Of a stretch of DNA of 64,000 nt, positions 1 to 51,478 are shown one piece after another (position 1 is the first letter of the stretch; each line of letters opens with the position of its first letter). The notes below the pieces were generated by a model that worked only from the letters and a program-made list of their open reading frames with translations, was not told the DNA's origin and made no database searches. The translations under genes and the position numbers were made by a program. Location of the stretch: contig CBDBFT010000001.1 of NCBI GenBank assembly GCA_965205065.1, forward strand, positions 2,156,836 to 2,220,835, written 5' to 3'. This DNA comes from Candidatus Poribacteria bacterium (lineage in GTDB: Bacteria > Poribacteria > WGA-4E > WGA-3G).

Positions 1-20
1 TCCGTCCACGACTGATCTAA

Positions 21-3000
21 CTTTTAATCGCACCAGTTTGGAATAGAAACGCTGTCAATGCACGTTGTGAAATCTGTTTTGCTTGTACTTTTAATCGCAC
101 CAGTTTGGAATAGAAACAAAAATTAAACGCATCGTCGTAGAATCGAATTTGTTGACCTTTTAATCGCACCAGTTTGGAATAGAAACGATTTTAAAGTGCG
201 AATAGAAATTATAAATGGGAAAACTTTTAATCGCACCAGTTTGGAATAGAAACCTTACCGTTTTCAAGCCTTGATGTGTAAGACATTTTCTTTTAATCGC
301 ACCAGTTTGGAATAGAAACGAAATTGTCCAGATGTCCCCGGCAAGATTGGCGCCGGGCTTTTAATCGCACCAGTTTGGAATAGAAACGAGATCGTAAGCG
401 CGCGCACGCCTGTCAGACTCCTCTTTTAATCGCACCAGTTTGGAATAGAAACAATGAATGATCAGACTGTTATTCGTATCTTTGATCAGCTTTTAATCGC
501 ACCAGTTTGGAATAGAAACCAAATGCGTTGCGGCAAGTTGGGGTTTGCATTCACCTTTTAATCGCACCAGTTTGGAATAGAAACTCCACCTTTGAAAGTT
601 TTCATTAGCTGATTGTTCACTTTTAATCGCACCAGTTTGGAATAGAAACTTCCCATAATATTTCAACTGGGTGACCTTCGTCTGTCTTTTAATCGCACCA
701 GTTTGGAATAGAAACCCTATAAAAGGTGAAATATGAAATCGCAAACAGAATGGAAACTTTTAATCGCACCAGTTTGGAATAGAAACGCAATTGCGTTGAA
801 GCCTCGCGTATCAAAGTTTTCACTTTTAATCGCACCAGTTTGGAATAGAAACACGACGAAGAGGGGCTTTACGAGTGAACTTCATTGACTTTTAATCGCA
901 CCAGTTTGGAATAGAAACAAACCTCCATGCAGTCAACAGGAACATAGGTTTATCACTTTTAATCGCACCAGTTTGGAATAGAAACCCAACACGTCACTTG
1001 AGAATGCGATCACACTGCAAGAACTTTTAATCGCACCAGTTTGGAATAGAAACCGGACAAAATAACATAGCTGTATCAGGTCTATCCTTTTCCTTTTAAT
1101 CGCACCAGTTTGGAATAGAAACATCATAAATGTCATGCGTTGGATTGTTGGGTCTTCAGCCTTTTAATCGCACCAGTTTGGAATAGAAACTGTACTTGAT
1201 TACCTCTCCCATATCTGCATCTTGATCTTTTAATCGCACCAGTTTGGAATAGAAACTCCAAAAATGATGTTTCTATCCTTGATCGGCCTTTACTTTTAAT
1301 CGCACCAGTTTGGAATAGAAACAGTTTATCAGAGTCTTTTTTCTCAATAATCACTTGTCTTTTAATCGCACCAGTTTGGAATAGAAACGTTTTTATGATA
1401 ACCCCGATTTATCAAATCCTTCGAGCTTTTAATCGCACCAGTTTGGAATAGAAACGAGTCTATAGTCGCTTTCCTAAGAAGGTTATGATACCCTTTTAAT
1501 CGCACCAGTTTGGAATAGAAACCTGGCACAACACCACCAGAAAGACGAGACGATATGGTCCTTTTAATCGCACCAGTTTGGAATAGAAACACGCTTACGA
1601 AACTCTTTACACACAGCCACCGTATTCTTTTAATCGCACCAGTTTGGAATAGAAACCCCTCATACGGATTAAATGTAACTTCATCAAGCACCCTTTTAAT
1701 CGCACCAGTTTGGAATAGAAACGGTGGCGACGGTAGAAGTCCGCTTGTGCGTTGCATCCTTTTAATCGCACCAGTTTGGAATAGAAACGTCTGACTGAGT
1801 AACCGGGTGGCGACGGTAGAAGTCCCTTTTAATCGCACCAGTTTGGAATAGAAACAGCACGGATAAAGTCATCTGTCGTTCTTATCTCTGTCGCTTTTAA
1901 TCGCACCAGTTTGGAATAGAAACCAAAGCCAGACAACTCTAAATCATCATACCAAATAAACTTTTAATCGCACCAGTTTGGAATAGAAACAACTCAAAGA
2001 AAATCACATAACGAAAATTATAACCACTTTTAATCGCACCAGTTTGGAATAGAAACATATTCTATAAGAATAGCTATAGTCTTCTTCGTTTCTTTTAATC
2101 GCACCAGTTTGGAATAGAAACACTTTTTACAAGATGATTGATACTACCAAGCGAGGTTCCTTTTAATCGCACCAGTTTGGAATAGAAACCCCCACGTGAC
2201 AGATCAGCAAACACTTGTGTATACTTTTAATCGCACCAGTTTGGAATAGAAACCGCGTCTCCGCAAAAATAAAAGCATGCAAATGGATGCGTCTTTTAAT
2301 CGCACCAGTTTGGAATAGAAACTGGTATCATTATTTTCTTGCTGGTGTGGTTGTTGGCTTTTAATCGCACCAGTTTGGAATAGAAACTGTCAAATAATAC
2401 TCTTTAATCAAGAAGAATACGACGCTTTTAATCGCACCAGTTTGGAATAGAAACGTTTAATTGGGAGAATTTACTTGCGATTTATAATTCACTTTTAATC
2501 GCACCAGTTTGGAATAGAAACGTCAAGGATTTCCTCGCCACGCGCATCTGTTCTACGTCTTTTAATCGCACCAGTTTGGAATAGAAACTGCCCATCTGTC
2601 AGTATAAAAGTCACTCTATTATCTTTTAATCGCACCAGTTTGGAATAGAAACATGTATAGGATATCGCATGCGGTCGAAAATGTTGTCTCTTTTAATCGC
2701 ACCAGTTTGGAATAGAAACCCGACCCAGTCTTTGAGTATTATATTACCATTTTTAACTTTTAATCGCACCAGTTTGGAATAGAAACTGTTATAACAGAGA
2801 AGAGTGTCAGTGAACTTGTAGATGAACTTTTAATCGCACCAGTTTGGAATAGAAACTCCTCTTTGTCACCTCCTCTCTGTGTTATCTATCTCTCTTTTAA
2901 TCGCACCAGTTTGGAATAGAAACTTTGTCGTTAGCCATTGCGTTTCCTCTTTCCTCTACCTTTTAATCGCACCAGTTTGGAATAGAAACTTCCACCACCC

Positions 3001-6000
3001 AGTCTTGTATGCTGATATTTCCTGCGTGCTTTTAATCGCACCAGTTTGGAATAGAAACATAGGTGTGATAGCCAGCAGTGCCAGAACCGAAGCCCTTTTA
3101 ATCGCACCAGTTTGGAATAGAAACACGCCTACGTGCAACCTATTGATGGGAGGAATTCCTTTTAATCGCACCAGTTTGGAATAGAAACGACGCTCAACGC
3201 CACCAATACCGATGCGAGCACCCCACCTTTTAATCGCACCAGTTTGGAATAGAAACGAGGATAACCAGTTCAGCGTTGACAGCGTTGTTGTCTTTCTTTT
3301 AATCGCACCAGTTTGGAATAGAAACAGTGTCCGCACGCAGACGCATATATTTTATTGCTACCTTTTAATCGCACCAGTTTGGAATAGAAACTTTTTCAAA
3401 ACTTGATATTCCATTATAAACCCCCTTTCTTTTAATCGCACCAGTTTGGAATAGAAACAAGAGGAGTATGGTGACAGCGACTTGTGGGACGCACTTTTAA
3501 TCGCACCAGTTTGGAATAGAAACTCTGAATAAAGAGTTGTTTTTGCCAGCATGGCATTCTTTTAATCGCACCAGTTTGGAATAGAAACTATTAATTATAT
3601 GATACAATTATAACGTGGAATCAGGTACTTTTAATCGCACCAGTTTGGAATAGAAACAACTCTGCTTCTGTCTGCTTTTGTGTCAGACCTTCAACTTTTA
3701 ATCGCACCAGTTTGGAATAGAAACTGCCTAATCTGACAGCCAAACAGGCTGCATTAGGCAAGCTTTTAATCGCACCAGTTTGGAATAGAAACGTGAGAAT
3801 TAGTCATTCAAAACTTCGCCAGTGTTTCTTTTAATCGCACCAGTTTGGAATAGAAACTTTATTTATTGATAAATTTCATCTATCTCTTTTTGCTTTTAAT
3901 CGCACCAGTTTGGAATAGAAACGATCAACCGCATCAGCTACATGTGCGGAAACGAGGGCTTTTAATCGCACCAGTTTGGAATAGAAACGCGCGCGGGATC
4001 GCATAGCTGCCGTCAAAGCCGAGATTGACTTTTAATCGCACCAGTTTGGAATAGAAACTTCAACTGCGAACGGTTTTCGCTGGTTAGTAACTATTCTTTT
4101 AATCGCACCAGTTTGGAATAGAAACGATATATATAGATGCAAAATCAGGTATTGTCTGCACTTTTAATCGCACCAGTTTGGAATAGAAACAGGACATGTC
4201 TGATATTGGATTATCAGATGTGTCTGTCCTTTTAATCGCACCAGTTTGGAATAGAAACGGTCTTATCTCATTTGAAGAAGCACCATATCAACGCGCACTT
4301 TTAATCGCACCAGTTTGGAATAGAAACATCCCGACTCGGCAATACTCACAAAAGAGGGTGTATATGCCTTTTAATCGCACCAGTTTGGAATAGAAACGCG
4401 ATTTAATATAAAACTGAAATGGTACGGAGAACGGACTTTTAATCGCACCAGTTTGGAATAGAAACAGTAAATCGGGATTCTGCTCAATTACTGCTAAAAA
4501 GCCTTTTAATCGCACCAGTTTGGAATAGAAACAGTCGTCTCAAGTCTATTATAGCAACTCTTATGAATTCAACTTTTAATCGCACCAGTTTGGAATAGAA
4601 ACTCGCATTCATGCTGACTTTCTTGAAAATCAGCACTTCCTTTTAATCGCACCAGTTTGGAATAGAAACATAATAATTTAACGTAATAGTCTATGTCAAT
4701 GACGTCCCTTTTAATCGCACCAGTTTGGAATAGAAACGACAGCTGCCCTGCCCGGTGCCTATTCATGATAATAGTCTTTTAATCGCACCAGTTTGGAATA
4801 GAAACGTGCGTTTTTCCTGTCTCGTTGTCAACGACTAAAATGCTTTTAATCGCACCAGTTTGGAATAGAAACTTTAATATGTTGATTCTTGATAGCATCT
4901 GACTATAAACCTTTTAATCGCACCAGTTTGGAATAGAAACTATTGTCCAGGCTTTCACTTCAGCAAATAATCATGAACTTTTAATCGCACCAGTTTGGAA
5001 TAGAAACTGCAATATCTATACCTGAATCTCCGCAAGCTGCCGTAGACCTTTTAATCGCACCAGTTTGGAATAGAAACGTTTGTCATTGACGCTGATCGTA
5101 TCCGTTTCATTCGCTTTTAATCGCACCAGTTTGGAATAGAAACCGTCTTGTTTCTGAACAATGAAACCGAGGGCCTTCACTTTTAATCGCACCAGTTTGG
5201 AATAGAAACCGCCAATATCGTAAGCCATTCCGTGCTTTAAGTCCTCGACTTTTAATCGCACCAGTTTGGAATAGAAACTCCAAGTGGGCAATTCAGAGTA
5301 CACCTGCCCGCACCTTCTTTTAATCGCACCAGTTTGGAATAGAAACTGACGATAAAAATCGTACTTGAGGGTAGTGAAATCACTTTTAATCGCACCAGTT
5401 TGGAATAGAAACCTATATCAAGAGCCAACAACTCAAGATTGGACAACCTTTTAATCGCACCAGTTTGGAATAGAAACGCAATCTTCGCATTAGCACAATG
5501 CTTCGCATTAGGTGACTTTTAATCGCACCAGTTTGGAATAGAAACGTGTATAATATATATAGGTTTAGGATTAAGAAGTTCACTTTTAATCGCACCAGTT
5601 TGGAATAGAAACAAATGCGTATGTAAGGCAGTGGTTTTCTTACAATCACTTTTAATCGCACCAGTTTGGAATAGAAACGATAATAGAATATATTAGATTC
5701 AAATTCAACAAATTCGCTTTTAATCGCACCAGTTTGGAATAGAAACGTATCGGCAACTCGTTTTCTACATCTTGAAAATGGACTTTTAATCGCACCAGTT
5801 TGGAATAGAAACTGTTTTTATTTGTGCCTTGACGATATCCTTCCATTGACTTTTAATCGCACCAGTTTGGAATAGAAACCTTGAAGGCGCAGTGATAACA
5901 ATAGAAAAGGTATTGTCCTTTTAATCGCACCAGTTTGGAATAGAAACAGACAATCCACAACTGCATCGCAAGCTTCCAGGTACTTTTAATCGCACCAGTT

Positions 6001-9000
6001 TGGAATAGAAACGATATATTTAATTCAAGCGACAGGAACAGTCGGCACTTTTAATCGCACCAGTTTGGAATAGAAACGCTTGTGCGCGTGCTGCATAGTC
6101 TTGTGTGGTTGCTTCTTTTAATCGCACCAGTTTGGAATAGAAACCTGGCTTTAGTGAGTATTCATGATTATCGGCTGCTGCACTTTTAATCGCACCAGTT
6201 TGGAATAGAAACTTATAGTTGCATTTGCTCCTATAACAAAAAGCAGACTTTTAATCGCACCAGTTTGGAATAGAAACAGCTGATCGCAGCACCGATGACG
6301 CCAGCAACGGATTTGCTTTTAATCGCACCAGTTTGGAATAGAAACAATCGCACCAGTTCTACACAATCACAGTCGCGACAACTTTTAATCGCACCAGTTT
6401 GGAATAGAAACGGCTACGATTTCAACGTCACGGATTACAAAACCACGTTAACTTTTAATCGCACCAGTTTGGAATAGAAACAGTGCATACGGACTCCCGT
6501 TGCACTTGGGTGCTTTTTCTACTTTTAATCGCACCAGTTTGGAATAGAAACAGATCATCTCGTGCAATCTATTGAGATGATTTTCTACTTTTAATCGCAC
6601 CAGTTTGGAATAGAAACTTCTGCAGATGGCGGGATAGAACTAAAAATAACGGGACTTTTAATCGCACCAGTTTGGAATAGAAACCCAAAGGTGCCCCCCA
6701 TCTTCGCACTTTTGGTTTTGGAGCTCTTTTAATCGCACCAGTTTGGAATAGAAACGCAGTAGAAGCAACTGCGGAAACGGAAGATATCCGCCTTTTAATC
6801 GCACCAGTTTGGAATAGAAACACCGTCAGTTCGGACGGTAGACGCTTCAACAATTTTCTTTTAATCGCACCAGTTTGGAATAGAAACCGGTTTGAATAAG
6901 AAAGATAAGAACACAGGGAGAACCTTTTAATCGCACCAGTTTGGAATAGAAACACACAACGCATGATGACGTAGTAACCTTTATCGGTGACTTTTAATCG
7001 CACCAGTTTGGAATAGAAACCGATCAAGTTCTAAAGTTCGCAGGTGAGACACGACTTTTAATCGCACCAGTTTGGAATAGAAACTTCGGTTTTTAGTCTT
7101 GACAATCGGTGTCTTGACTTGCTTTTAATCGCACCAGTTTGGAATAGAAACTTACTTTCTGATGATGATATGCTGCTTGGAGAATCTTTTAATCGCACCA
7201 GTTTGGAATAGAAACGAAGCAGATCCACCTGTGGCGGAGGTTCTTGAAACTGACTTTTAATCGCACCAGTTTGGAATAGAAACATTATTAAACTATAGTC
7301 TATTAGACTTTTGATTATACCCTTTTAATCGCACCAGTTTGGAATAGAAACTTACCTTTTAGTTCAGTTGTAAGGTCGGGAAAATCTGTCTTTTAATCGC
7401 ACCAGTTTGGAATAGAAACTTCAATTGAGTAGCTTTGTATGTGCTGATTTACAACTTTTAATCGCACCAGTTTGGAATAGAAACGCAATATTGGCGATTG
7501 CACTTCCAAACTCGGCAACTCAGCTTTTAATCGCACCAGTTTGGAATAGAAACGTGTTTAGTATTTCCTTTATTCTGCGTCTTGCGTTTCCTTTTAATCG
7601 CACCAGTTTGGAATAGAAACGATATTGCGTTCCGCTTTCGGATATGCATACTCAAGCTTTTAATCGCACCAGTTTGGAATAGAAACTCTGTCACGATAAC
7701 TAATTCTGGTCTCGTCAACAACCTTTTAATCGCACCAGTTTGGAATAGAAACTGTCACGAGCGAATTGTAAAAGACGCTCGTTTGAGCTTTTAATCGCAC
7801 CAGTTTGGAATAGAAACCCTGCTTTATGTATACGGTCACCTGACATACTCACTTTTAATCGCACCAGTTTGGAATAGAAACGGCTCCCATAGCAATTCTG
7901 ATATTCGTTACTATAACCTTTTAATCGCACCAGTTTGGAATAGAAACGTATCTCTTGTTGGACAGCTGATATTACACGCTTGAGAATACTTTTAATCGCA
8001 CCAGTTTGGAATAGAAACTATTTCAACTCTGCGTAGGTTTCTATGTCAACAGCTAACCTTTTAATCGCACCAGTTTGGAATAGAAACAAATACGTTCTGT
8101 TTCAATAACAACATTGTCCCCAACTCGCTTTTAATCGCACCAGTTTGGAATAGAAACAAGGGGGGTTGTAGAGTTGGCGAACAACACAGAAACTTTTAAT
8201 CGCACCAGTTTGGAATAGAAACGCGTTAGTCAAAAGGCAGATTGACAGTGTCAGACCATCCTTTTAATCGCACCAGTTTGGAATAGAAACTCGTTACGAA
8301 TCAAGTTCTTGAGATTGGCACATCTGCTTTTAATCGCACCAGTTTGGAATAGAAACAATATATATAGATGCCAAATCGGGTATCGTCTGCAGCACTTTTA
8401 ATCGCACCAGTTTGGAATAGAAACTCCATCAATTCCTGGTGGCTCCATAACCTCTTGGGTTCTTTTAATCGCACCAGTTTGGAATAGAAACTGAGAGTCC
8501 TCTTTCAAGACTTCGCTTTTACCGTGGTCTGTCTTTTAATCGCACCAGTTTGGAATAGAAACTTGAGATACGGAGCAGCGTTGAGAGTGGATACAGGACT
8601 TTTAATCGCACCAGTTTGGAATAGAAACTTGAAGTCTGTGTGGTCTACACATATCCACATAACCTTGCCTCTTTTAATCGCACCAGTTTGGAATAGAAAC
8701 ATAGGATCACACCTGCCGGCTATTTAGCTAATCAGTATACTTTTAATCGCACCAGTTTGGAATAGAAACGTTTGATACGGATTCTACTTCGGATGATGAT
8801 CATGCCTTTTAATCGCACCAGTTTGGAATAGAAACTATACTATTGATAATCTTCGTACTTCACAGGATTGGCCTTTTAATCGCACCAGTTTGGAATAGAA
8901 ACTGTGGCAACTCATAAACACGCAAGGGATCTGCCTTACTTTTAATCGCACCAGTTTGGAATAGAAACTTGACGTGAAGTACCATAAACCAAAGAATTAT

Positions 9001-9440
9001 TAGGTTCCTTTTAATCGCACCAGTTTGGAATAGAAACGTCTGCTGTTCCGTGTTGTGTGGTGGTTTCCGTTTACTCTTTTAATCGCACCAGTTTGGAATA
9101 GAAACTTGATACAAATTTCAAGTCCCATGTGTGATTTCTCTTTTAATCGCACCAGTTTGGAATAGAAACGCTCTTGTTGGACACTGATATTTCTGAGTTG
9201 TATATCTGCTTTTAATCGCACCAGTTTGGAATAGAAACAAACACTTTAGTGTTTCTCACAATTCTATTTTGTGGCTTTTAATCGCACCAGTTTGGAATAG
9301 AAACCATCCTCTCCAGGCTGCTGATTGATCGTGATGTGGTTCCCTTTTAATCGCACCAGTTTGGAATAGAAACACATTCGAACAGGTGCACCTGACACCA
9401 AAGCATCTCCCTTTTAATCGCACCAGTTTGGAATAGAAAC
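21..9440 (+). CRISPR. Large CRISPR array, about 141 copies of the 30-bp repeat CTTTTAATCGCACCAGTTTGGAATAGAAAC with 35-41 bp unique spacers. Truncated at the window start, so the leader is presumably upstream of position 1.
   Basis: Direct reading: perfect 30-bp repeats at about 67-bp period from 21 (first full repeat) to 9411-9440 (last). The repeat ends in ATAGAAAC, a type I/III-like 8-nt 5' handle, which implies + strand transcription. Spacers are unique apart from a few related pairs. Confidence 0.97.
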
Positions 9441-9608
9441 TGAGGAAGATGAAGTGGATGTCTAAAGTTTATGTCAGAATCGCGGATTATCGCGGATGAC
9501 ACGGAAGGGGTTTCTTGTGCATTTCAAGTTTACTTTCACAAATTGGCGTTAATTTTAGCATAACCCCATAGACGGCAATTTAGTACAGAGAAGGATAATG
9601 AAGGATGA

Positions 9609-10320
9609 ATGTTGTATAAAGAAGCACAATCAAGGATGAATGTGCTACGGCAGTATCAAAAGGGATGGTGTAGGGTGAAGGGGATAGGTGGAAGGTTGGA
9701 AGGTTGGAAGGTTGGAAGAGGGGAAGGATGGAAGGTTGGAAGGTTGGAAGAGGGAAGGATGGAAGAGGGAAGAATGGATGGGAGGAAGGTTGGAAGAAAA
9801 GAAGAGGGAAGGATGGAAGGGTGGAAGGTTAGAGGGTTGTATGGGTGGAAGAAAGAAGCACAATCAAGGATGAATGTGCTACGGCAGTATCAAAAGGGAT
9901 GGTGTAGGGAAAAGGGGATAGATGGAAGGTTGGAAGGTTGGAAGAGGGGAAGGATGGAAGAGGGGAAGGTTGGAAGAGGGGAAGGTTGGAAGAGGGGAAG
10001 GATGGAAGGTTGGAAGGTTGGAAGAAAAGAAGAGGGAAGGATGGAAGGGTGGAAGGTTAGAGGGTTGTATGGGTGGAAGAAAGAAGCACAATCAAGGATG
10101 AATGTGCTACGGCAGTATCAAAAGGGATGGTGTAGGGAAAAGGGGATAGATGGAAGGTTGGAAGGTTGGAAGAGGGGAAGGATGGAAGGGTGGAAGGGTG
10201 GAAGAGGGAAGGATGGAAGAGGGGAAGGTTGGAAGAGGGAAGGATGGAAGGTTGGAAGGTTAGAGGGTTGTATGGGTGGAAGGAAGAAGCACAATCAAGG
10301 ATGAATGTGCTATAGGCATG
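9609..10320. repeat. Composite dispersed repeat: three higher-order units of about 220 bp. Each unit carries the hairpin motif AAGAAGCACAATCAAGGATGAATGTGCTAC plus a GGAAGG(A/T)TGGAAGAGGG minisatellite.
   Basis: Seen in sequence: the 9609-9670 module recurs near 9850 and near 10080. The ORFs across it (9609..10304 and others) are low-complexity translations (EGWKRGRMEEGK / SSILPLFHPS). Confidence 0.85.
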
Positions 10321-10401
10321 ATCGCGGAAGGCACGGAGGAGGTGGATATGCTCCTGAATCTTCTGTGCAAAAACTTTACACACCCAAAGTCACATTAGCA
10401 G

Positions 10402-10431
10402 TTGCCATAATTCAATAGTATGCGTTATAAT
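10402..10431 (+). promoter_or_regulatory. Candidate sigma70-like promoter (TTGCCA-N18-TATAAT) upstream of the dam-cas10 operon.
   Basis: TTGCCA at 10402-10407 and TATAAT at 10426-10431 in an AT-rich region about 60 bp upstream of the 10489 start. The RBS GGAG precedes the ATG. Pattern only; no expression data. Confidence 0.3.
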
Positions 10432-10488
10432 AGGTAAACTATTAACTTCCTATAATATTATACTAACAAGAGAATTCAGGAGAAAGGT

Positions 10489-11511
10489 TTGGAAAACAGT
10501 AAGTTGTTATCATTCTACACGCCTAAAGAAGACTTCCTATTATCACTTAGAGGAAAGGGTAAGCATAAGTATGTACGTTACAACGGCCTCCCGCTGCGAT
10601 ATGCAGGTGGGAAGAGTCTCGGAGTAGGACATATAATTGAACACATTCCAGAAGGAATTGACAAACTTTCCTCTCCATTCATTGGCGGTGGATCAGTTGA
10701 AATCGCATGTGCAAAAGAACTTGGTATGCAGGTCAGAGCCTATGATGTTTTTGATATTCTCGTCAACTATTGGCAGGTGCAACTCTCCACAAGTCAACAA
10801 CTTGCAGAAAAACTTCTGGAATGGGAACCGACAAAAGAAAAGTATGCTGAAATAAAGACTACACTCAAGGGACATTGGACAGGTGAATCTCCTATTTCTG
10901 ATCCATTAGAGTTAGCTGCACACTACTGGTTTAATCATAACCTTTCATACGGACCCGGTTTTCTCGGATGGATGTCAAAGATTTACGAATCAACCAGCAG
11001 GTATATTTCAGCAGTAGAAAAAGTAAGAAAGTTTTCTTGTCCATCATTAGAAGTGCAACCCGGAAGTTTTGAACAAACCATTCCTCAACACAAAGAAGAA
11101 TTCCTTTATTGCGATCCTCCCTATTACCTTGATGATGGTAAAATGTTCAAAGGAATCTATCCACAGCGAAATTTTCCTGTTCATCATAAGGGTTTTAAAC
11201 ATGAAACCCTTCGTGACCTACTGTATGAACATGTAGGAGGGTTCGTGCTTTCATATAATGATTGTGATACAATCAGAAATTGGTATACTGATTTTGAAAT
11301 AATTGAGGTAAAATGGCAGTACACATTAGGACAAGGTGAAACACGGATTGGGAAAAATCGCATAGAAAAGGGTATGGGACATGTTAAAAAGTCTCACGAA
11401 TTGTTAATTATTGGAAAGAGAAAACGTTTATTATTGAACAGTTTTGGAAATAACGTAGAGGTAGAAAATCAGATTTCTGTATATGGCAGTGCAATACCTG
11501 ATTTAGATTAG
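10489..11511 (+). CDS. Dam-family (D12 class, alpha-group) N6-adenine DNA methyltransferase.
   Basis: N-terminal RYAGGK motif (compare Dam WAGGK), SAM-binding PFIGGGSVE (FxGxG) and catalytic DPPY (CDPPYYLDD). It lies 40 bp upstream of cas10 on the same strand. Confidence 0.85.
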   Translation: MENSKLLSFYTPKEDFLLSLRGKGKHKYVRYNGLPLRYAGGKSLGVGHIIEHIPEGIDKLSSPFIGGGSVEIACAKELGMQVRAYDVFDILVNYWQVQLSTSQQLAEKLLEWEPTKEKYAEIKTTLKGHWTGESPISDPLELAAHYWFNHNLSYGPGFLGWMSKIYESTSRYISAVEKVRKFSCPSLEVQPGSFEQTIPQHKEEFLYCDPPYYLDDGKMFKGIYPQRNFPVHHKGFKHETLRDLLYEHVGGFVLSYNDCDTIRNWYTDFEIIEVKWQYTLGQGETRIGKNRIEKGMGHVKKSHELLIIGKRKRLLLNSFGNNVEVENQISVYGSAIPDLD

Positions 11512-11550: not shown

Positions 11551-13857
11551 TTGAAACAACAACTTTTAACACTCGCAGCACTCCTACACGACATCGGCAA
11601 ATTTCGGCAACGCGCCACCGGACGCTACACAAAACACCAAGAACATAGCTACGAATTCGTCAACAACGATTTCAATACTTTCTTCGATCCTTGTGGAGAT
11701 ACCTTCAAAAACGCTATCCTAAACCACCATCATAAACCAGAACAACTTCAGCATCTCATAGAAAAACAGGTAGTATTAGCAGACCGTCTCTCCGCATCCG
11801 AACGCGAAGATGAGGAACGAGAAACGGAGGACTTCGTTGCATCTCCGCTCGCTTCTATTATGTCACGCCTTAAATGTGCTGAGAAAGAACATCGCTACAA
11901 ACTGACAAAACTCAATTTTGAACGGGACACGGTCATCCCACAAGAAACCGTTGAGGTCAATGAAAATGATTATGCAGGTTTGTGGGAGAAGTTTAAAGAG
12001 GAATTCAGCACAGCAACAGAAGGTAAAACCTATGAACCAGCACATTATCAAACCATCGTAGCACTCCTACACAAATACACAGTTCGTATACCGTCCGCAA
12101 CGCCGTGGGAAAAAGACGGAAAGAAAACGATCCCAGATATTTCGCTCTACGACCATCTCCGCACAACCGCAGCCATTGCAGCCTGTATCGGACACGAACT
12201 AAATGACGAAAACGAAGTTGACGCAATACTTAATGATACTGAAAAATCAGATCGGCACATAGCCTCGCTTATCAAAGGCGACATTTCGGGTATCCAGGAT
12301 TTTCTCTATCACATCCAATCCGATGGCGCATCCAACCAACTGCGTGGTCGTTCATTCTACCTGCAACTCCTCACGGAAGCAATCGCGCACTATGTCCTAA
12401 AGCAGTTTGAACTTCCTATCACAAACCTAATTCTCGCAAGTGGCGGACACTTCTTTATCCTTGCGCCTTACACCGAATCCAAAGAGAAGTTAAGCACAAT
12501 TCGACAAGAAATATCCCAAAAGTTGTGGGAACTCCATAGAGGCGATATTTCCTGCATGTTAGCGGGTATCTCCATAAAAGCACGCGATTTTAAAACTGAG
12601 AATTTCACGGAAAAATGGGATGCCGTTTCAAAAAAAGTCAATGAAAGAAAACAGCAGAAATGGTCAGAATTAGAAGCAGAACAGATGTTTGATAACCTCT
12701 TTGAGCCAAGCGATGACAGAACTATTAATGAACAGGAAGATGACGAAGAGAAGAAAAGAGACCCTTGGCAGTTTGAAAAACTTGGAAGGAAATTGCGGGA
12801 TGCAAAATATCTTATCACTTACGATATAGCAAAATCAGATATCCTTCCACAACCCAAATGGCACGATGCAATCAATGCCTTCGGTTTAGATGTTGAAGTC
12901 CTGGAAGATACCCGTGCCAAACCTGAACTGCAGGGAGTAAATACTGTTGTCTATAGACTCGGGGATACACGTTTTCTCGAAAATTCAGAAGATTTTCAAT
13001 CGGAAAACAACTTTGTTAGCTACGATTTCCGAATATTTAAACCCGTAATCGCATATCGGCACGATACAGATGAACCCGATAAAATCGCTGATTACAATCA
13101 CCTCGCAAACGCATCAGAAGGTGTTAACTGGTTCGGTGCACTCCGCATGGACGTTGATAACCTCGGCACCGTCTTCAAAGATAAACTTGAGAACGCAACC
13201 ATCTCACGGCATGCAACCTTAAGCAGAGAAATGCGCCTATTTTTTGAAGGATATGTCCCGAAACTATGTAAAGCATATAACGAGAACAAAAATAAACAGA
13301 TTCTTGAACTCATCTACGCTGGTGGTGATGACCTATTCCTTGTCGGTGGGTGGAGTGCGTTGCCTGATATAGCAGAACATATCCGCTCCGAATTTAAACA
13401 CTTTGTCACAGGTGCCCACGTAACGCTTTCAGGTGGTATCGCCATTGAACACATGAAGTATCCGCTTTATCAGTTTGCAGAACGGAGTGGCAATGCAGAA
13501 GACGCTGCAAAGGGTATTGATGAAAACAAGGATGCGATCTCATTTTTACAACTACCGATGAAATGGGAAGAGTTTGCTAAAGTGCGCGAATGGCACGAAA
13601 AGTTTACGAACGTACTAACAGGTCAAGACCAACTACCGCGCGACATACTCACCCGTCTCAGCCAGATATATGAAGATAAAGAGCGGTGGGCATGGCGTTC
13701 ACTCTACTACTTCCATCGACTACAAGAGAGATACAAATATGACGAACAGAAAGATTTTCTACGTGAACTAAAACAGAAACTTAACCACGAAGATTCTTCT
13801 CAATTTAGAGAGGAACTCATCCATGTCATTACCAGATGGACCGCACTACGTATCAGA

Positions 13858-13866
<9 letters not shown>
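11551..13866 (+). CDS. cas10: Cas10 (Csm1-like) large subunit with an N-terminal HD nuclease domain and a GGDD cyclase/Palm motif.
   Basis: LHDIGKF HD motif at residues about 11-17. IYAGGDDLFLVGGW GGDD motif in the C-terminal half. 771 aa. First gene of a csm2-csm5 series. Confidence 0.9.
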
Positions 13867-14632
<766 letters not shown>

Positions 14633-14644
14633 AGGAGGAAACAC

Positions 14645-15478
14645 ATGCCAAGTATTAAACTACACGGAAAAATCTTTCTAAAAGGCACAATAAACGCCTT
14701 AACAGGTTTACACATCGGCGGCAACACAGGTGAATTAGACATCGGCGGTATTGATAATGCAATCATACGAAACGCCTTCAACCGACAGCCTTACATTCCC
14801 GGTTCGTCCCTACGTGGAAAGATGCGAGGTTTACTCGACAGGCACTTTGCAAAGGAATTGAATAGACCTGTCGGTAGAGATGTCCGAGTTAACGAGTGCA
14901 AAACACCGGAAGAATATTATACATGTCCAATTTCTCAAGTTTTCGGTGTCGCACCCATACAACAATTAAGAGGTAAAACGATGCCGACACGTGTGATCGT
15001 CCGAGACACCTTTTTAACTGACGAATCACTGGCAGTACTGGAAAAAGCCGATACCGACACAGATTTCACTGAAATCAAAACAGAGGTAGCAATTGACCGA
15101 ATCACCTCAGCGGCAACACCACGTCAACAAGAACGTGTCCCCGCAGGTGCAAAATTCGGACCATTTCAAATAGTCCACAGTCTCTATACACAGCACGGCA
15201 CTAATTACGACAATCAACTTCAAGACGAACTCAAACTTTTCGACACCGTCCTAAAAGGTATGGAACTCCTTGAAGACGATTACCTCGGCGGCTCCGGTTC
15301 GCGCGGCTCAGGGCAGATAGCATTTGAGAATCTGACGATGACCTTCAAATCGCGTGAATGCTATGAAAAAGTTGATATAGATCCGATAACTATCAATTTG
15401 CCCGAAAACGCAGACATCAAAGCAGTCCGTCAATCCGAATACGTTGAGCAAATTCGGAATGCAATCCCCGCGGAATAG
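14645..15478 (+). CDS. csm3: Csm3 (Cas7-group RAMP backbone subunit).
   Basis: G-rich loop LTGLHIGGNTGE and a QPYIPGSSLRGKMRG motif typical of Csm3. Position in operon. Confidence 0.85.
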   Translation: MPSIKLHGKIFLKGTINALTGLHIGGNTGELDIGGIDNAIIRNAFNRQPYIPGSSLRGKMRGLLDRHFAKELNRPVGRDVRVNECKTPEEYYTCPISQVFGVAPIQQLRGKTMPTRVIVRDTFLTDESLAVLEKADTDTDFTEIKTEVAIDRITSAATPRQQERVPAGAKFGPFQIVHSLYTQHGTNYDNQLQDELKLFDTVLKGMELLEDDYLGGSGSRGSGQIAFENLTMTFKSRECYEKVDIDPITINLPENADIKAVRQSEYVEQIRNAIPAE

Positions 15479-15486
15479 GTACACTT

Positions 15487-16518
15487 ATGGAAGATTATAC
15501 CGTCTATTGCTTACAGTTCAAAACCCAATTACATCTCGGACGCGCCACAGGTGCAGCACAAACTGGCAGCCTCGGCTTAGAGAAAACCGAGACCTACATC
15601 CCCGCAGACACCCTCTTTTCTGCGATATGCCAAACATGGTCAACCTTTTACGACACCGCAAGCCTCACCGATTTTCTCAATCAATACACAGCAGAAAACG
15701 GGACGCTTCCCTTTACCTTAACCTCTGCATTCCCGTACGCACAAAACATCTGTTTCTATCCCAAACCGATGATATGGACAGATAGATCAAAAGAAAGCAA
15801 ACGTATCCAATTTGTGTCGGACAACATATTTCAGCAGATTATTGCAGACAATCCACCAGCATTCGATAAAAAGCAGTTGATTACCGGAGAAAATGTTTGG
15901 ATAAGCGATACGGAAAAAAATCTGTTGAAGATAACAGATGGGGATGATTATGAAATTTGGAAAACTGCTACGCGTCCGCGCGTTACCATCGGTGCACAAA
16001 ACGCCGGATCCGAAATATGGCACGTCCAAACCGTCCAATTCAACAAAAACTGTGGACTCTGGTTCGCTGCGAAATTTGACTCTGATGCAACAAAACAGAA
16101 AGTAGAAACACTACTCCGAGTGCTTGGAGATAACGGCATCGGTGGTGAACGCAACGCTGGATATGGGCAGTTTGAGTTTGCCGAAGCAGAATGTAAGATA
16201 CCGTCAGCAGAAGATAGCACCCAATTTGTAACGCTTTCACCGATATGTCCCAAATCATCGGAGCAACTTGAGCATCTCCTCAAAGGTAATATCGCTTACA
16301 ACCTAAATCCATTAACAGGATGGGTAGGTTCACCAGGTACACATAAAAGGAGAAAAAAGGGCAATATGTTCGCTGAAGGTTCTGTTTTAAATGCTTATGA
16401 CGAACCCGTAGGCAGGTTGATAGATTTAAAACCGAAGGACTACCCGCATCCCGTCTATCGCTACGGATACGCATGGCAGGTCGGTATCAAAGTAGGAGGG
16501 AACTCCGATTCCCGATAA
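15487..16518 (+). CDS. csm4: Csm4 (Cas5-group RAMP).
   Basis: N-terminal LQFKTQLHLGRATG...YIPADTLFSAICQ pattern characteristic of Csm4. Position between csm3 and csm5. The C-terminus runs into the tandem repeat. Confidence 0.8.
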   Translation: MEDYTVYCLQFKTQLHLGRATGAAQTGSLGLEKTETYIPADTLFSAICQTWSTFYDTASLTDFLNQYTAENGTLPFTLTSAFPYAQNICFYPKPMIWTDRSKESKRIQFVSDNIFQQIIADNPPAFDKKQLITGENVWISDTEKNLLKITDGDDYEIWKTATRPRVTIGAQNAGSEIWHVQTVQFNKNCGLWFAAKFDSDATKQKVETLLRVLGDNGIGGERNAGYGQFEFAEAECKIPSAEDSTQFVTLSPICPKSSEQLEHLLKGNIAYNLNPLTGWVGSPGTHKRRKKGNMFAEGSVLNAYDEPVGRLIDLKPKDYPHPVYRYGYAWQVGIKVGGNSDSR

Positions 16519-16700
16519 GGTAGGAGGCCAACTATATAAAACTGGCCGATTCCCGATAAGGTAGGAGGGAACTCCGATTCCCGATAAGGTAGGAGGCCAA
16601 CTATATAAAACTGGCCGATTCCCGATAAGGTAGGAGGGAACTCCGATTCCCGATAAGGTAGGAGGCCAACTATATAAAACTGGCCGATTCCCGATAATGT
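16492..16700. repeat. Three tandem 69-bp units filling the csm4/csm5 junction. Each combines the GGGAACTCCGATTCCC hairpin with a GGCCA-N12-TGGCC hairpin and GGTAGGAGG boxes.
   Basis: Direct reading of 16492-16700. Same core as the 13858-14048 repeat. The core was not seen elsewhere in the window. Confidence 0.9.
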
Positions 16701-16713
16701 TGGAGACATCAGA

Positions 16714-17877
16714 ATGAAACAGAAATACAAACTTGAAACCATCACCCCTGTCCACATCGGATCAGGCGAAACGTTGAATCATATAGATGGCTATTACGTT
16801 AACGGCAGGTGGTATCGCATAGATTTAGACAAAGTATTAGCACATCCATCAACAAACATCAACGCGTTAACCTCCGAAATGTCCAAGCGTGATTTCCGTT
16901 GGAGCGATTACTTCTCACGACACAACATAAATGGTGCTGAACTGTCGGCGTATAGTCTGCTGTGTTCGCAAAGTCCCGAAACAGTCGACATTCGAGAGGC
17001 AATCAAATCTGTTGACAACCGTCCCTACATTCCCGGTAGCAGCATCAAAGGTGCAATCCGCACAGCGTTGTTATCGGATCTGATAAACAGTGATGAAAAC
17101 AGAAAACTCTATAACGATAGTTCAAAATATCTCAACAGGGAAATTGATAAAGGCGCGCCATCAAGACGTAGACCAGAACATCCTGCACGACAGATAGAAA
17201 ACTTAGCTTTTGGTAAAGACCCAAACCATGATTTATTGCGTGCATTACAGGTGAGTGATACTGAACCGCTTGAAAGTGAGGCACTTGCAATTGAAACGGC
17301 ATGGACGGTTACGCTCAACCAAAACAATCAACTTGTTCAGAAGATTGAGGGCAATACAGAATACAAAAACTGTGCAGAGGTAATTCAGGGTGGACAATCA
17401 TTGACATTTACACTCAAAATTGATGATTGGTTACTTGATGATCCTGCATACACTAAACTTGGTTTTACCGATACACAATATGGAGCTATCCACAGTATAT
17501 TTGATGTTTGTTATGGGGTAAATAAAAATTTTATAGATAAAGAAATAAAATTCTATAATAATTTCGCGAGTATCTATAATCTCTATAACGGACTAAACAA
17601 TACGAATGAATCACTCTCAAACGGGGTGTTCATACTGCAAATTGGATGGGGCACAGGATACCTTTCTAACACAGTAACCTCGTCCTTTACGCAAGCAGAG
17701 GATGCACCTGTAGACATTATGGCATTACGAGAACGTTATCGTTTAGGCAGGAGTCGTTCTAATCAACGGCAACCTTATGATGCCCGCGAATTCCCGAAAA
17801 CACGTCGTATCTTATACCGAGGACCAAACCCCATCGCACCACTCGGCTGGGTTAAAATATCACCAATAGAGGATTAA
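16714..17877 (+). CDS. csm5: Csm5 (Cas7-group RAMP).
   Basis: ITPVHIGSGE near the N-terminus and RPYIPGSSIKGAIRTALLS motifs. 387 aa. Last gene of the csm operon. Confidence 0.8.
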   Translation: MKQKYKLETITPVHIGSGETLNHIDGYYVNGRWYRIDLDKVLAHPSTNINALTSEMSKRDFRWSDYFSRHNINGAELSAYSLLCSQSPETVDIREAIKSVDNRPYIPGSSIKGAIRTALLSDLINSDENRKLYNDSSKYLNREIDKGAPSRRRPEHPARQIENLAFGKDPNHDLLRALQVSDTEPLESEALAIETAWTVTLNQNNQLVQKIEGNTEYKNCAEVIQGGQSLTFTLKIDDWLLDDPAYTKLGFTDTQYGAIHSIFDVCYGVNKNFIDKEIKFYNNFASIYNLYNGLNNTNESLSNGVFILQIGWGTGYLSNTVTSSFTQAEDAPVDIMALRERYRLGRSRSNQRQPYDAREFPKTRRILYRGPNPIAPLGWVKISPIED

Positions 17878-17881
17878 AGAA

Positions 17882-18228
17882 CTTTTAATCGCACCAGTTT
17901 GGAATAGAAACTGACAATACTATGTAAAATGTGGTATAATTAAGTACTTTTAATCGCACCAGTTTGGAATAGAAACCATTATAATTGGAGACGGAATATT
18001 TTGCAGTCTAAACTTTTAATCGCACCAGTTTGGAATAGAAACGGGTGATTAATGACTCCCCGTAGCTCAGTGAATAGAGCATGAGGTTTCTACCCTCAGT
18101 GTCACAGGTTTGAATCCTGTCGGGGAGTCCACTTTTAATCGCACCAGTTTGGAATAGAAACACTCCCAAGTTGGACATGACTTATCAATAATGAAAAGCT
18201 TTTAATCGCGCCCGTTGTGTAAAGTTTT
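17882..18228 (+). CRISPR. Second, leaderless mini-array: four perfect copies and one degenerate terminal copy of the same 30-bp repeat. One inter-repeat unit is a tRNA-like gene.
   Basis: Perfect repeats at 17882-17911, 17947-17976, 18013-18042 and 18132-18161. A degenerate copy at 18199-18228 (CTTTTAATCGCGCCCGTTGTG...) marks the trailer end. The first repeat starts 4 nt after the csm5 stop. Confidence 0.9.
18056..18131 (+). tRNA. tRNA-Arg(UCU)-like gene with genome-encoded CCA, sitting between two CRISPR repeats.
   Basis: Manual fold: acceptor CTCCCCG/CGGGGAG, D-stem GCTC/GAGC, anticodon stem TGAGG/CCTCA with loop TTTCTAC (anticodon TCT), T-stem ACAGG/CCTGT, discriminator T, then CCA. Non-canonical D-loop (AGTGAATA, no GG pair) and T-loop (TTTGAAT). 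A19-U56 could covary. It may be a divergent or pseudo tRNA. Confidence 0.7.
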
Positions 18229-51439: not shown

Positions 51440-51478
51440 TTCAGATTATGCAAATTTCATGAAAAGGAGGACAAACAA

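What the first reader, a model, noticed from the sequence alone, without database searches (positions are those of the whole stretch)
21..9440. Very large array with overlapping and variant spacer pairs (primed or serial acquisition)
About 140 spacers in one array is exceptional.

- Adjacent spacers 1723-1758 and 1789-1825 share the 20-mer GGTGGCGACGGTAGAAGTCC, offset by 17 nt (overlapping protospacers).
- Spacers 4126-4160 and 8357-8394 differ at 4 positions over 35 nt (same target, variant alleles).
- Spacers 7948-7988 and 9170-9208 share CTCTTGTTGGACA(G)CTGATAT.

This indicates repeated encounters with related mobile elements and escape variants. Spacer lengths (35-41) fit type III/I-style adaptation.
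Basis: seen in the sequence. Interest (0 to 1): 0.5.

Follow-up and report, generated by a model that had tools for sequence, protein, structure and literature searches.

The report
Large ordinary CRISPR array, Poribacteria symbiont
This is a real but otherwise ordinary, very long CRISPR immune-memory array of a sponge-symbiont bacterium (Candidatus Poribacteria); three spacer pairs record repeated sampling of related invaders, which is normal for this array family, and the oddest thing nearby is a complete tRNA gene sitting between CRISPR repeats in a second mini-array.

Summary
Positions 21-9440 contain 141 identical 30-nt repeats (CTTTTAATCGCACCAGTTTGGAATAGAAAC) and 140 unique spacers of 34-42 nt. 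The window starts inside a spacer, so the array is longer. All three reported spacer pairs exist and exceed shuffled controls. No other pair does.

The array lies beside an intact type III-A (Csm) operon in a Candidatus Poribacteria genome. Relatives carry the same repeat family in arrays of at least 93, 79 and 63 repeats. Those arrays are fed by cas4-cas1-cas2 within composite type I-B + III-A loci.

Related spacer pairs are routine in this family: 35 in 2,079 spacers, 30 in the same orientation. Non-duplicate pairs are not clustered along arrays. The "variant allele" pair differs only at every third base, which fits diverged gene copies rather than escape mutants. Priming is not shown; only the adjacent overlapping pair hints at it. 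Coding-strand bias is weak, about 57-62% antisense. No protospacer was found in any database searched.

Verdict: a large new member of a known kind, of low to moderate interest.

The more unusual feature is a 4-repeat mini-array at 17882-18161. One "spacer" is a complete tRNA-Arg(UCU), conserved in a related genome. Another holds a near-consensus promoter.

The parts
1..20 (+). 3' end of a further spacer; the array continues beyond the window's 5' edge, towards the inferred leader
   Evidence: TCCGTCCACGACTGATCTAA directly precedes the first repeat. It is shorter than any spacer in the array.
21..9440 (+). CRISPR array A: 141 identical 30-nt repeats and 140 unique spacers (34-42 nt). The oldest end is at 9440.
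   Evidence: Polarity is inferred from relatives, where consensus repeats lie next to cas2 and degenerate repeats lie at the far end.
1723..1825 (+). Adjacent spacers 25 and 26 (1723-1758, 1789-1825). Their protospacers overlap by 20 nt and together rebuild a 53-nt target stretch.
   Evidence: The 5' flank of protospacer 25 reads CCG. The forward strand has stop codons in all 3 frames; the reverse strand is open in all 3 (read from the sequence).
4126..4160 (+). Spacer 61, the newer copy of a variant-allele pair with spacer 124
   Evidence: 31 of 35 positions identical, same 5' start, differences at positions 0, 15, 21 and 27.
8357..8394 (+). Spacer 124, the older copy of the variant-allele pair; it extends 3 nt further at its 3' end
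7948..7988 (+). Spacer 118; shares a 22-nt core with spacer 136 (1-nt indel, flanks diverge)
   Evidence: score 18 against a shuffle maximum of 15.
9170..9208 (+). Spacer 136, the partner of spacer 118
9441..10488 (.). Non-coding stretch between array A and the cas genes. It is full of dispersed GGAAG-type and hairpin repeats. A promoter-like site lies at 10402-10431 (TTGCCA-18-TATAAT).
   Evidence: An inverted copy of 9472-9541 lies at 18322-18397.
10489..11511 (+). D12-class N6-adenine DNA methyltransferase, first gene of the operon
   Evidence: PF02086, E 3.9e-34. Conserved in L036.
11551..13866 (+). cas10/csm1, with an HD motif at residue 13 and a GGDD motif at residue 591
14074..14632 (+). 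csm2 (Cas11) fused to an N-terminal cold-shock domain
   Evidence: PF00313 plus PF03750; the same fusion in 11 fetched loci (10 Poribacteria genome loci and metagenome locus L074). The start codon was placed after the 39-nt tandem repeats at 13850-14081.
14645..15478 (+). csm3 (RAMP)
15487..16518 (+). csm4 (RAMP plus Csm4_C)
16714..17877 (+). csm5 (RAMP). A 100% identical protein is on a 5.9-Mb NCBI/ENA contig. Homologues are named type III-A Csm5 of Candidatus Poribacteria.
17882..18161 (+). CRISPR mini-array B: 4 repeats identical to those of array A, starting 4 nt after the csm5 stop codon
17911..17940 (+). Near-consensus sigma-70 promoter (CTGACA-18-TGgTATAAT) inside the first spacer of array B, pointing into the array
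   Evidence: only 8 sites this strong occur in the 64 kb, and 6 of them lie directly upstream of genes.
18043..18131 (+). 89-nt unit in a spacer position: 13 nt followed by a complete tRNA-Arg(UCU) with encoded CCA (18056-18131). The CCA abuts the next repeat.
   Evidence: ARAGORN; Rfam, 61.4 bits; 75 of 76 nt identical in syntenic L036.
18199..18228 (+). Degenerate terminal repeat of array B (CTTTTAATCGCGCCCGTTGTGTAAAGTTTT)

Best explanation
Array A is the long spacer archive of a class 1 CRISPR-Cas locus in a Candidatus Poribacteria (sponge symbiont) chromosome.

Inferred from relatives: spacers are taken from invader DNA by a Cas4-Cas1-Cas2 module that lies upstream, off the window. They are inserted at the leader end, also off the window. 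A 5' PAM, probably YCN/CCN, fixes their orientation and 5' boundary, while the 3' end varies.

Inferred: the array is transcribed on the + strand and cut by a Cas6 into crRNAs carrying the 8-nt AUAGAAAC handle.

Shown: these crRNAs can load the adjacent, intact Csm (type III-A) complex. Inferred: they probably also load a type I-B Cascade encoded elsewhere, as in relatives.

The three related spacer pairs come from independent re-sampling of the same or homologous invader sequences. One pair is two diverged alleles of one PAM-defined site in a coding gene. One is two overlapping sites taken in successive acquisitions. One is a short conserved motif shared by two otherwise different elements. 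This is the normal behaviour of this array family and is not a special mechanism.
For: - Repeat and spacer structure.
- The three pairs exceed shuffled controls and no others do.
- An intact csm operon lies next to the array, with HD and GGDD motifs in Cas10.
- Source clade and the same repeat family in about 20 Poribacteria loci, all co-oriented with csm and many of them large.
- cas4-cas1-cas2 lies directly upstream of such arrays (L019, L004, L132), and I-B genes cas8b-cas7-cas5-cas3 lie in the same loci.
- Repeat degeneracy increases away from cas2.
- Family-wide there are 35 related pairs in 2,079 spacers, 30 of them co-oriented. Many share the 5' start but differ in 3' end. The 5' flanks recovered from offset pairs are YCN in 6 of 9.
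- Stop codons are symmetric between strands, and codon-model antisense bias is weak.
- The differences in pair 61/124 are all in one codon phase and synonymous: read from the sequence.
Against: - No cas1, cas2, cas4, cas6 or type I gene lies in the 64-kb window. The leader is off the window. The adaptation route and a shared type I effector are therefore inferred from relatives whose Csm5 is at most 80% identical.
- No protospacer was found, so the PAM, the nature of the targets and the true coding strand remain unverified. Searches: IMG/VR, the phage collection (17), the plasmid collection (59), and local searches against fetched loci and the rest of the window (27, 46, 80).
- The YCN flank rests on 9 pairs from different organisms.
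- Array A ends in a perfect repeat rather than a degenerate one, unlike the relatives.
Confidence: 0.8

Rival explanations
1. Primed adaptation. A partly mismatched older spacer, recognised by a type I-B Cascade-Cas3, triggered bursts of new acquisition from the same invader. This would produce the overlapping adjacent pair 25/26 and the updated allele 61 of old spacer 124.
For: - Pair 25/26 is adjacent and co-oriented. The chance that at least one of 3 pairs is adjacent is about 0.04.
- All three window pairs, and 30 of 35 family pairs, are co-oriented.
- Relatives carry I-B interference genes plus cas4-cas1-cas2 in the same locus.
- Priming is established for type I-B (Haloarcula hispanica; my own knowledge).
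Against: - Across the family, non-duplicate related pairs are spread along arrays as random pairs would be (mean F 0.53, KS p 0.62).
- Co-orientation is equally explained by a PAM acting on the same or overlapping sites.
- Pairs 61/124 and 118/136 are 63 and 18 spacers apart.
- No type I genes lie in this window, and no target was found that would show clustering of protospacers.
Confidence: 0.2
2. The array serves type III only. Spacers are taken without a PAM, or from RNA by a reverse-transcriptase-Cas1, and retained only if the crRNA is antisense to invader transcripts.
For: - The only effector genes in the window are csm genes.
- There is a slight antisense tendency: T exceeds A in spacers, and sense-like calls are 44-46% in the window and 42-45% in 582 spacers from relatives.
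- The 53-nt stretch rebuilt from pair 25/26 is open only on the reverse strand.
Against: - The bias is weak (estimated 57-62% antisense) and not significant for the window alone (p 0.2-0.45).
- Stop codons number 249 against 252 on the two strands.
- Many family pairs share the 5' register, which argues for a PAM-type ruler.
- Relatives have Cas4 and ordinary Cas1, not a reverse-transcriptase-Cas1.
- In S. thermophilus type III-A, spacers insert in both orientations (PMC8860593).
Confidence: 0.08
3. The pairs are products of duplication inside the array followed by mutation, not of separate acquisitions.
For: Thirteen near-identical spacer pairs in the family are clustered at short distances, the pattern expected from slippage duplications. 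Such duplications are well documented (PMC8047081).
Against: - None of the window's pairs is a duplicate.
- Pair 25/26 overlaps at an offset and carries different flanking target sequence.
- Pair 61/124 differs in 3' length by 3 nt of additional sequence, and its changes are phased on codons.
- Pair 118/136 diverges completely outside a 22-nt core.
Confidence: 0.03
4. The similarities are chance matches or low-complexity matches between unrelated spacers.
For: The 13-mer and 14-mer taken alone are at chance level; the longest shared word is at least 13 in about 20% of shuffles. Pair 61/124 begins with ATATATATA.
Against: The alignment scores of 26.5, 20 and 18 all exceed the maximum of 15 from 40 shuffled sets. 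The 20-mer was never reached in 300 shuffles.
Confidence: 0.02

Closest known systems
Composite type I-B + type III-A CRISPR-Cas loci of Candidatus Poribacteria, for example TARA scaffold L132 and chromosomes OZ242381.1 and OX638351.1
   Same: Same 30-nt repeat family, differing at 0-4 positions. Same csm gene order. Arrays co-oriented with csm and often very long. Spacers of about 36-37 nt.
   Different: In this window, csm6/CARF, cas4, cas1, cas2 and the leader are missing downstream of csm5. A mini-array containing a tRNA stands in their place. A Dam-like methyltransferase heads the operon. No spacer is shared with any relative.
Very long CRISPR arrays such as that of Haliangium ochraceum (587 spacers; PMC8047081)
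   Same: An array of more than 100 spacers, in the rare upper tail of bacterial array sizes.
   Different: About a quarter of the record length. Within its own clade, arrays of this size are common.
Primed adaptation in type I systems (I-E, I-F, and I-B of Haloarcula hispanica; my own knowledge)
   Same: Multiple co-oriented spacers from one target, and an older mismatched spacer paired with a newer matching variant.
   Different: Positional clustering of related spacers is not seen family-wide. Neither the interference genes nor the targets are available here.
Type III-A adaptation in Streptococcus thermophilus (PMC8860593)
   Same: A Csm effector next to the array. Both coding orientations are represented among spacers. 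That study found tRNA and rRNA genes to be uptake hot spots.
   Different: Here the adaptation module in relatives includes Cas4, and pairs share a 5' register, which implies a PAM. The tRNA unit is a whole 76-nt gene plus 13 nt, not a normal-length spacer.
Synthetic polycistronic tRNA-guide RNA arrays (my own knowledge)
   Same: In mini-array B, a tRNA is placed between guide or repeat units in a single transcript. RNase P and RNase Z cleavage would therefore cut the transcript at defined points.
   Different: This one is natural, is conserved in two genomes, and lies in a class 1 context that depends on Cas6. No experiment shows co-processing.

Membership tests
CRISPR array (class 1, Cas6-type repeat) | Regularly spaced, near-identical direct repeats of 23-50 nt | tested here: met
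   141 identical 30-nt repeats, with a period of 64-72 nt.
CRISPR array (class 1, Cas6-type repeat) | Unique spacers of similar length | tested here: met
   140 spacers of 34-42 nt with no duplicates; the best pair is 31 of 35 identical.
CRISPR array (class 1, Cas6-type repeat) | Adjacent cas genes | tested here: met
   cas10 and csm2-5 lie at 11551-17877, starting about 2.1 kb downstream of the array's end at 9440.
CRISPR array (class 1, Cas6-type repeat) | Leader at one end and a degenerate repeat at the other (polarity) | tested here: inconclusive
   The 5' end is off the window and the 3' end carries a perfect repeat. Relatives show the leader next to cas2 and degenerate repeats at the far end. 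Array B ends in a degenerate repeat.
CRISPR array (class 1, Cas6-type repeat) | Spacers match mobile genetic elements | tested here: not met
   No hit in the phage or plasmid collections, in 6 IMG/VR scans, or in locally held loci. Viruses of sponge symbionts are probably poorly represented in these collections, so this is weak negative evidence.
CRISPR array (class 1, Cas6-type repeat) | 8-nt 5' handle derived from the repeat's 3' end (AUUGAAAC-like), produced by Cas6 | tested here: inconclusive
   The repeat ends in ATAGAAAC, and in relatives in ATTGAAAC. No cas6 gene lies in the window and there are no RNA data.
Type III-A (Csm) effector module | Cas10 with an HD nuclease motif and a GGDD cyclase palm | tested here: met
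   PF01966, PF18211 and PF22335. HD at residue 13 and GGDD at residue 591.
Type III-A (Csm) effector module | Csm2 (Cas11), Csm3, Csm4 and Csm5 in operon order | tested here: met
   Pfam Csm2_III-A, RAMPs, Csm4_C and RAMPs. Sources name the homologues type III-A Csm5.
Type III-A (Csm) effector module | Associated CARF effector (Csm6 or Csx1) | tested here: not met
   None in the window. Relatives have one after csm5. L036 keeps only an N-terminal remnant.
Type I-B system sharing the array, with Cas4-Cas1-Cas2 adaptation | cas8b-cas7-cas5-cas3 and cas4-cas1-cas2 in the locus | tested here: not met
   Absent from the 64-kb window. Present in relatives L004, L019 and L132. The region upstream of the array cannot be seen.
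Primed adaptation | New spacers cluster in time and on one strand around a mismatched priming protospacer | tested here: inconclusive
   One adjacent overlapping pair (p about 0.04). Family-wide there is no positional clustering of non-duplicate pairs, but they are co-oriented. No targets could be mapped.
tRNA (Rfam RF00005), for the unit at 18056-18131 | Cloverleaf scoring above the family threshold, with an anticodon loop and acceptor stem | tested here: met
   ARAGORN calls tRNA-Arg(tct). Rfam gives 61.4 bits against a gathering threshold of 29. A20 and C35 are present. The universal G19-C56 pair is replaced by A19-U56 (read from the sequence).

The most novel reading that the evidence does not exclude
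A functional tRNA-Arg(UCU) gene is maintained as a "spacer" unit inside a CRISPR mini-array, forming a natural tRNA-crRNA polycistron. It is driven by a consensus promoter that itself occupies a spacer slot. On this reading, tRNA supply and crRNA or Csm expression are functionally coupled. The tRNA might provide RNase P/Z processing sites. Alternatively, a needed AGA-decoding tRNA might anchor the locus against loss. A more speculative origin is capture of a mature, CCA-ended tRNA by the integrase, because the CCA is joined directly to the repeat and most other Poribacteria tRNA genes seen here (5 of 8) lack an encoded CCA.
Probability: 0.15. Interest if true: 0.7.

Novelty: new member of a known kind. 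Interest (0 to 1): 0.3.

Why it matters
The array itself adds little new. It confirms, in a long-read chromosome, that sponge symbionts such as Poribacteria keep very deep CRISPR memories. It also shows that repeated capture of the same PAM-defined site from diverged relatives of an invader is routine in this repeat family.

The 140 spacers, none yet matched to a target, could serve as host-assignment probes for Poribacteria viruses and plasmids once sponge viromes are available.

The part that might matter more is the neighbouring mini-array. A complete, conserved tRNA gene and a consensus promoter each occupy a spacer position between perfect CRISPR repeats. I found no description of this arrangement in the papers searched. 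If it is functionally linked, it would be a natural counterpart of the engineered tRNA-guide arrays.

Tried and rejected
**Protospacer searches, all negative**
- Whole array against 50,697 phage records: only chance 30-nt hits, E 0.7.
- Whole array against PLSDB plasmids: no match.
- IMG/VR exact or degenerate patterns for the 20-mer, the variant-allele spacer, its two back-translated peptide frames, the third pair's core, and a leader-side spacer: 0 hits each.

**Self-targets and shared spacers**
- No window spacer matches the rest of the window, any of about 130 fetched loci, or any spacer of related arrays.

**Source genome**
- Exact look-ups of Cas10, Csm5 and P0001 found no indexed contig.
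- The cluster look-up gave no accession.
- The leader and the genes upstream of array A therefore could not be read.

**tRNA context**
- An exact 38-nt tRNA pattern gave 0 hits in JGI metagenomes.
- No tRNA lies next to csm5 in 21 other Poribacteria loci or within arrays of 81 metagenome loci.

**Other**
- No base bias at spacer ends that could reveal a PAM.
- The inverted repeat flanking the csm cassette (9472-9541 and 18322-18397) proved to be a dispersed short element also found beside arrays in relatives. I do not read it as a transposon end.
- Local protospacer mining for a PAM returned only array-to-array matches, because diverged repeats escaped masking.
Full report
**Observation**

A regex scan for the repeat CTTTTAATCGCACCAGTTTGGAATAGAAAC finds 145 exact copies in the window, all on the + strand and with no variant.
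- 141 of them form array A at 21-9440, with 140 spacers of 34-42 nt, mean 37.1.
- The window opens with the last 20 nt of another spacer, so the array is truncated by the window edge.
- The other four copies form a second mini-array, B, at 17882-18161.

**Are the pairs more than chance?**

In an all-against-all local alignment of the 140 spacers on both orientations, the three pairs score 26.5, 20 and 18. The next best pair scores 12.5, and the best score in each of 40 shuffled spacer sets was 11-15. Judged by exact shared words alone, only the 20-mer stands out. The longest shared word in 300 dinucleotide-preserving shuffles was at most 17, while 13-14-mers occur in about 5-20% of shuffles. 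So there are exactly three related pairs among 9,730 possible pairs, all in the same orientation.

**What the pairs are**

*Pair 61/124 (4126-4160 and 8357-8394).*
- It has the same 5' start, and one member extends 3 nt further at the 3' end.
- Its four differences are at spacer positions 0, 15, 21 and 27, all in one codon phase (chance about 1/27).
- In the forward frame the three complete codons change synonymously (GCA/GCC, TCA/TCG, ATT/ATC; peptide IYIDAKSGIVC). In the matching reverse frame three of four changes are synonymous.
- This is what two diverged homologues of a protein-coding gene look like. It is not what CRISPR escape mutations look like.

*Pair 25/26 (1723-1758 and 1789-1825).*
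- The spacers are adjacent in the array and overlap by 20 nt at an offset of 17.
- Together they rebuild 53 nt of target. The forward strand of this stretch has stop codons in all three frames, and the reverse strand is open in all three.
- The three bases upstream of protospacer 25 are CCG.

*Pair 118/136.*
- It shares only a 22-nt core with a 1-nt indel, and its flanks are unrelated.
- It is therefore a conserved motif present in two otherwise different sequences.

**Context in the window**

Between arrays A and B lies one + strand operon:
- a D12-class adenine methyltransferase;
- Cas10, with HD at residue 13 and GGDD at residue 591;
- Csm2 fused to an N-terminal cold-shock domain;
- Csm3, Csm4 and Csm5.

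Pfam scans of all other sizeable ORFs to the end of the window found housekeeping genes, transposases, a second methylase and a ThsA-like protein. They found no cas1, cas2, cas4, cas6, CARF protein or type I gene.

**Source and relatives**

Csm5 homologues place the window in Candidatus Poribacteria, symbionts of marine sponges.
- The best species-representative genomes are 78% identical.
- A 100% identical Csm5 sits on a 5.9-Mb NCBI/ENA contig that could not be retrieved.

About twenty Poribacteria loci carry the same repeat family, differing at 0-4 positions and always co-oriented with csm. Their arrays reach at least 93, at least 79, 63, 59 and 54 repeats, some counted only as far as the 10-kb flank.

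In these relatives, cas4-cas1-cas2 lies immediately upstream of the array (L019, L004). The canonical locus reads cas8b-cas7-cas5-cas3, then cas10-csm2-5, then accessory genes, then cas4-cas1-cas2, then the array (L132). This is a composite type I-B + III-A locus with one adaptation module.

Repeats are consensus next to cas2 and become steadily more degenerate at the far end (L019, L014, L009, L006). The leader is therefore at the 5' end. By inference, the newest spacers of array A are at low coordinates and its leader and adaptation genes lie off the window.

Enrichment of CRISPR in sponge symbionts is already documented (PMC5099237). A review states that typical bacterial arrays hold fewer than 50 spacers, arrays above 100 are rare, and the record is 587 (PMC8047081). 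The array is large but not exceptional, least of all for its clade.

**Is the spacer sharing special?**

I extracted 2,079 spacers from 63 arrays of this repeat family. These were the window, the Poribacteria loci, and 81 stretches found in JGI metagenomes with a degenerate repeat pattern. The same comparison gave 35 related pairs.
- That is 1.7 pairs per 100 spacers family-wide, against 2.1 per 100 in the window.
- 30 of the 35 are co-oriented (p 2e-5).
- The 13 near-identical pairs cluster at short array distances. This is the pattern of slippage duplication.
- The 22 non-duplicate pairs are spread as random pairs would be (mean cumulative rank 0.53, KS p 0.62), yet 18 of them are co-oriented.
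- Many have offset 0, meaning the same 5' start, a variable 3' end and scattered substitutions, exactly like window pair 61/124.
- For nine offset pairs, the partner reveals the 5' flank: CCG, CCA, CCT, CCG, TCG, TCG, TTT, CTT and TAG. That is YCN in six of nine.

I read this as acquisition anchored on a 5' PAM, the role known for Cas4-Cas1-Cas2, repeated at different times on related invaders. It does not support bursts of primed uptake. Only the adjacency of pair 25/26 hints at coupled acquisition; the chance that at least one of three pairs is adjacent is about 0.04.

**Strand bias**

No target was found, so I tested coding-strand bias from the spacers themselves.
- Stop codons are symmetric: 249 forward and 252 reverse. 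Eight spacers are closed in all forward frames and nine in all reverse frames.
- A codon-usage classifier trained on the window's genes assigns the correct strand to 80-96% of host 37-mers, depending on the score threshold.
- It-46% of window spacers sense-like, which is not significant.
- It-45% of the 582 spacers from relatives sense-like (p about 0.01-0.02, or 5e-5 in the first version).
- This corresponds to an estimated 57-62% antisense.

The bias is weak. It is compatible with acquisition blind to coding strand plus mild selection by the Csm complex. It is not compatible with an array shaped by type III alone. In S. thermophilus type III-A, spacers also insert in both orientations and bias arises by selection (PMC8860593).

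**Target searches**

Targets were sought in the phage and plasmid collections, in six IMG/VR scans, and among all fetched loci and the rest of the window. No convincing hit and no self-target appeared. No spacer is shared with any related array, as expected for fast-turnover arrays of different species.

**Mini-array B**

Array B begins 4 nt after the csm5 stop codon. It reads R-35 nt-R-36 nt-R-89 nt-R-37 nt-degenerate R.

*The tRNA unit.*
- The 89-nt unit is 13 nt followed by a complete tRNA-Arg(UCU) whose encoded CCA abuts the next repeat (ARAGORN; Rfam 61.4 bits).
- The tRNA is unusual. It has C1-G72 and U73. Its D-loop is AGUGAAUA and its T-loop UUUGAAU, so the near-universal G19-C56 elbow pair is replaced by A19-U56, a compensated change (from alignment with the window's other tRNA-Arg).
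- AGA makes up about 9-10 per 1,000 codons in the window's genes.

*The promoter.*
- The first 35-nt "spacer" contains CTGACA-18-TGgTATAAT, an 11-of-12 match with an extended -10, pointing into the array.
- Only eight sites this strong exist in the 64 kb. Six of them sit directly upstream of genes, including the csm operon at 10402-10431.
- It is therefore probably a real promoter.

*Conservation in L036.*
- L036 is a syntenic contig from a related species, 85-93% identical in DNA across the methylase, csm genes, trpA and downstream genes.
- It has the same unit: a partial repeat, 17 nt, the tRNA, CCA, a repeat, a spacer and a repeat.
- The tRNA is 75 of 76 identical, although about 7 changes would be expected at the flanking divergence.
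- The neighbouring spacers differ between the two genomes, and a CARF-gene remnant follows csm5.

The tRNA unit is thus selectively retained while the array around it changed.

*Distribution and origin.*
- It was absent from 21 other Poribacteria loci and from all metagenome arrays examined.
- An exact tRNA pattern found nothing in JGI metagenomes.
- Literature searches found no natural tRNA gene within a CRISPR array.
- The most economical reading is that array B is the remnant of the downstream array seen in relatives, left after deletion of csm6, cas4, cas1, cas2 and the leader, and that a functional tRNA gene is lodged in it.
- Whether the CRISPR context matters to the tRNA, or the tRNA to the CRISPR system, is open.

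**Verdict**

The array is a large new member of a well-known kind, with all its quantitative features typical of its clade. Interest in the finding as stated is low to moderate. The tRNA-bearing, promoter-bearing mini-array is the part worth a follow-up.

Noticed in passing
window 18043-18131 (tRNA 18056-18131); L036 9595-9687: A complete tRNA-Arg(UCU) with encoded CCA occupies a spacer position between perfect CRISPR repeats in a 4-repeat mini-array just after csm5. It is 75 of 76 identical in a syntenic genome of a related species, while the neighbouring spacers differ. The tRNA has C1-G72 and U73, and A19-U56 in place of the universal G19-C56. Five of 8 other Poribacteria tRNA genes seen here lack an encoded CCA.
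   Followed up: partly
window 17911-17940 (within spacer 17912-17946): The first spacer of mini-array B is a near-consensus sigma-70 promoter (CTGACA-18-TGgTATAAT) pointing into the array and towards the tRNA. Only 8 sites this strong occur in the 64 kb, and 6 of them lie directly upstream of genes.
   Followed up: partly
window 14074-14632: Csm2 (Cas11) carries an N-terminal cold-shock (CSD, OB-fold) domain. The same fusion, contiguous in frame, occurs in 11 fetched loci (10 Poribacteria genome loci and metagenome locus L074). Other relatives, for example L132 with a 146-aa Csm2, lack it. I do not know of a described CSD-Cas11 fusion, and the literature was not searched for it.
   Followed up: partly
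window 13850-14081 and 16489-16705: Tandem repeats lie inside the csm operon's intergenic gaps: a 39-nt unit about 5 times before csm2 and a 69-nt unit 3 times before csm5. They are built on GTAGGAGGGAACTCCGATTCCCGA, a hairpin plus a Shine-Dalgarno-like GGAGG. Single copies sit just upstream of csm2 or csm5 in L004, L005 and L006.
   Followed up: partly
window 10489-11511: A Dam-like (D12 class) N6-adenine methyltransferase is the first gene of the csm operon, behind a strong promoter-like site at 10402-10431. It is conserved in L036 but absent from this position in L019 and L132.
   Followed up: no
L107 3313-3342 (Ga0075122_10011593): A phage-like metagenome contig with a tRNA cluster (Met, Tyr, Leu, Leu) carries a single copy of this CRISPR repeat family. 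It lies 1 nt after the CCA of tRNA-Leu(UAA), in reverse orientation, and is followed by a partial tRNA. It is a candidate viral solitary repeat unit, possibly an RNA anti-CRISPR or anti-repeat, embedded in a tRNA operon.
   Followed up: partly
L006 spacers at 12901-12940 and 13631-13667: Two spacers of a related Poribacteria array are themselves reverse complements of a variant of the CRISPR repeat (…ATTCCAAACTGGTGCGATTAGAAG…). They were therefore taken from DNA that carries such repeats, either another array or a mobile element with a repeat mimic.
   Followed up: partly
   Followed up: partly
window 9441-10320, 18229-20560, 27190-27534, 40216-40782 and elsewhere: Intergenic DNA is packed with dispersed repeat families. 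These include GGAAG(G/A)-type 8/16-nt microsatellites, an AAAGAAGCACAATCAAGGATGAATGTGCTAC hairpin element, and a GAATCGCGGATTA…ACACGGAAGGGG element that flanks the csm cassette in inverted orientation and recurs beside arrays in relatives. In several relatives such elements interrupt the arrays.
   Followed up: partly
window 4670-4699, minus strand (spacer 4670-4707): One spacer of array A holds an 11-of-12 sigma-70 match (TTGACA-18-TATTAT) on the minus strand. It may be a chance site, since about one is expected in the window, or it may be an antisense promoter inside the array.
   Followed up: no
window 50582-52279 and 61424-62359: Other defence-type genes lie in the window: an N6/N4 DNA methylase next to a PD-(D/E)XK protein, and a ThsA-like Macro-domain protein (Thoeris).
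   Followed up: no
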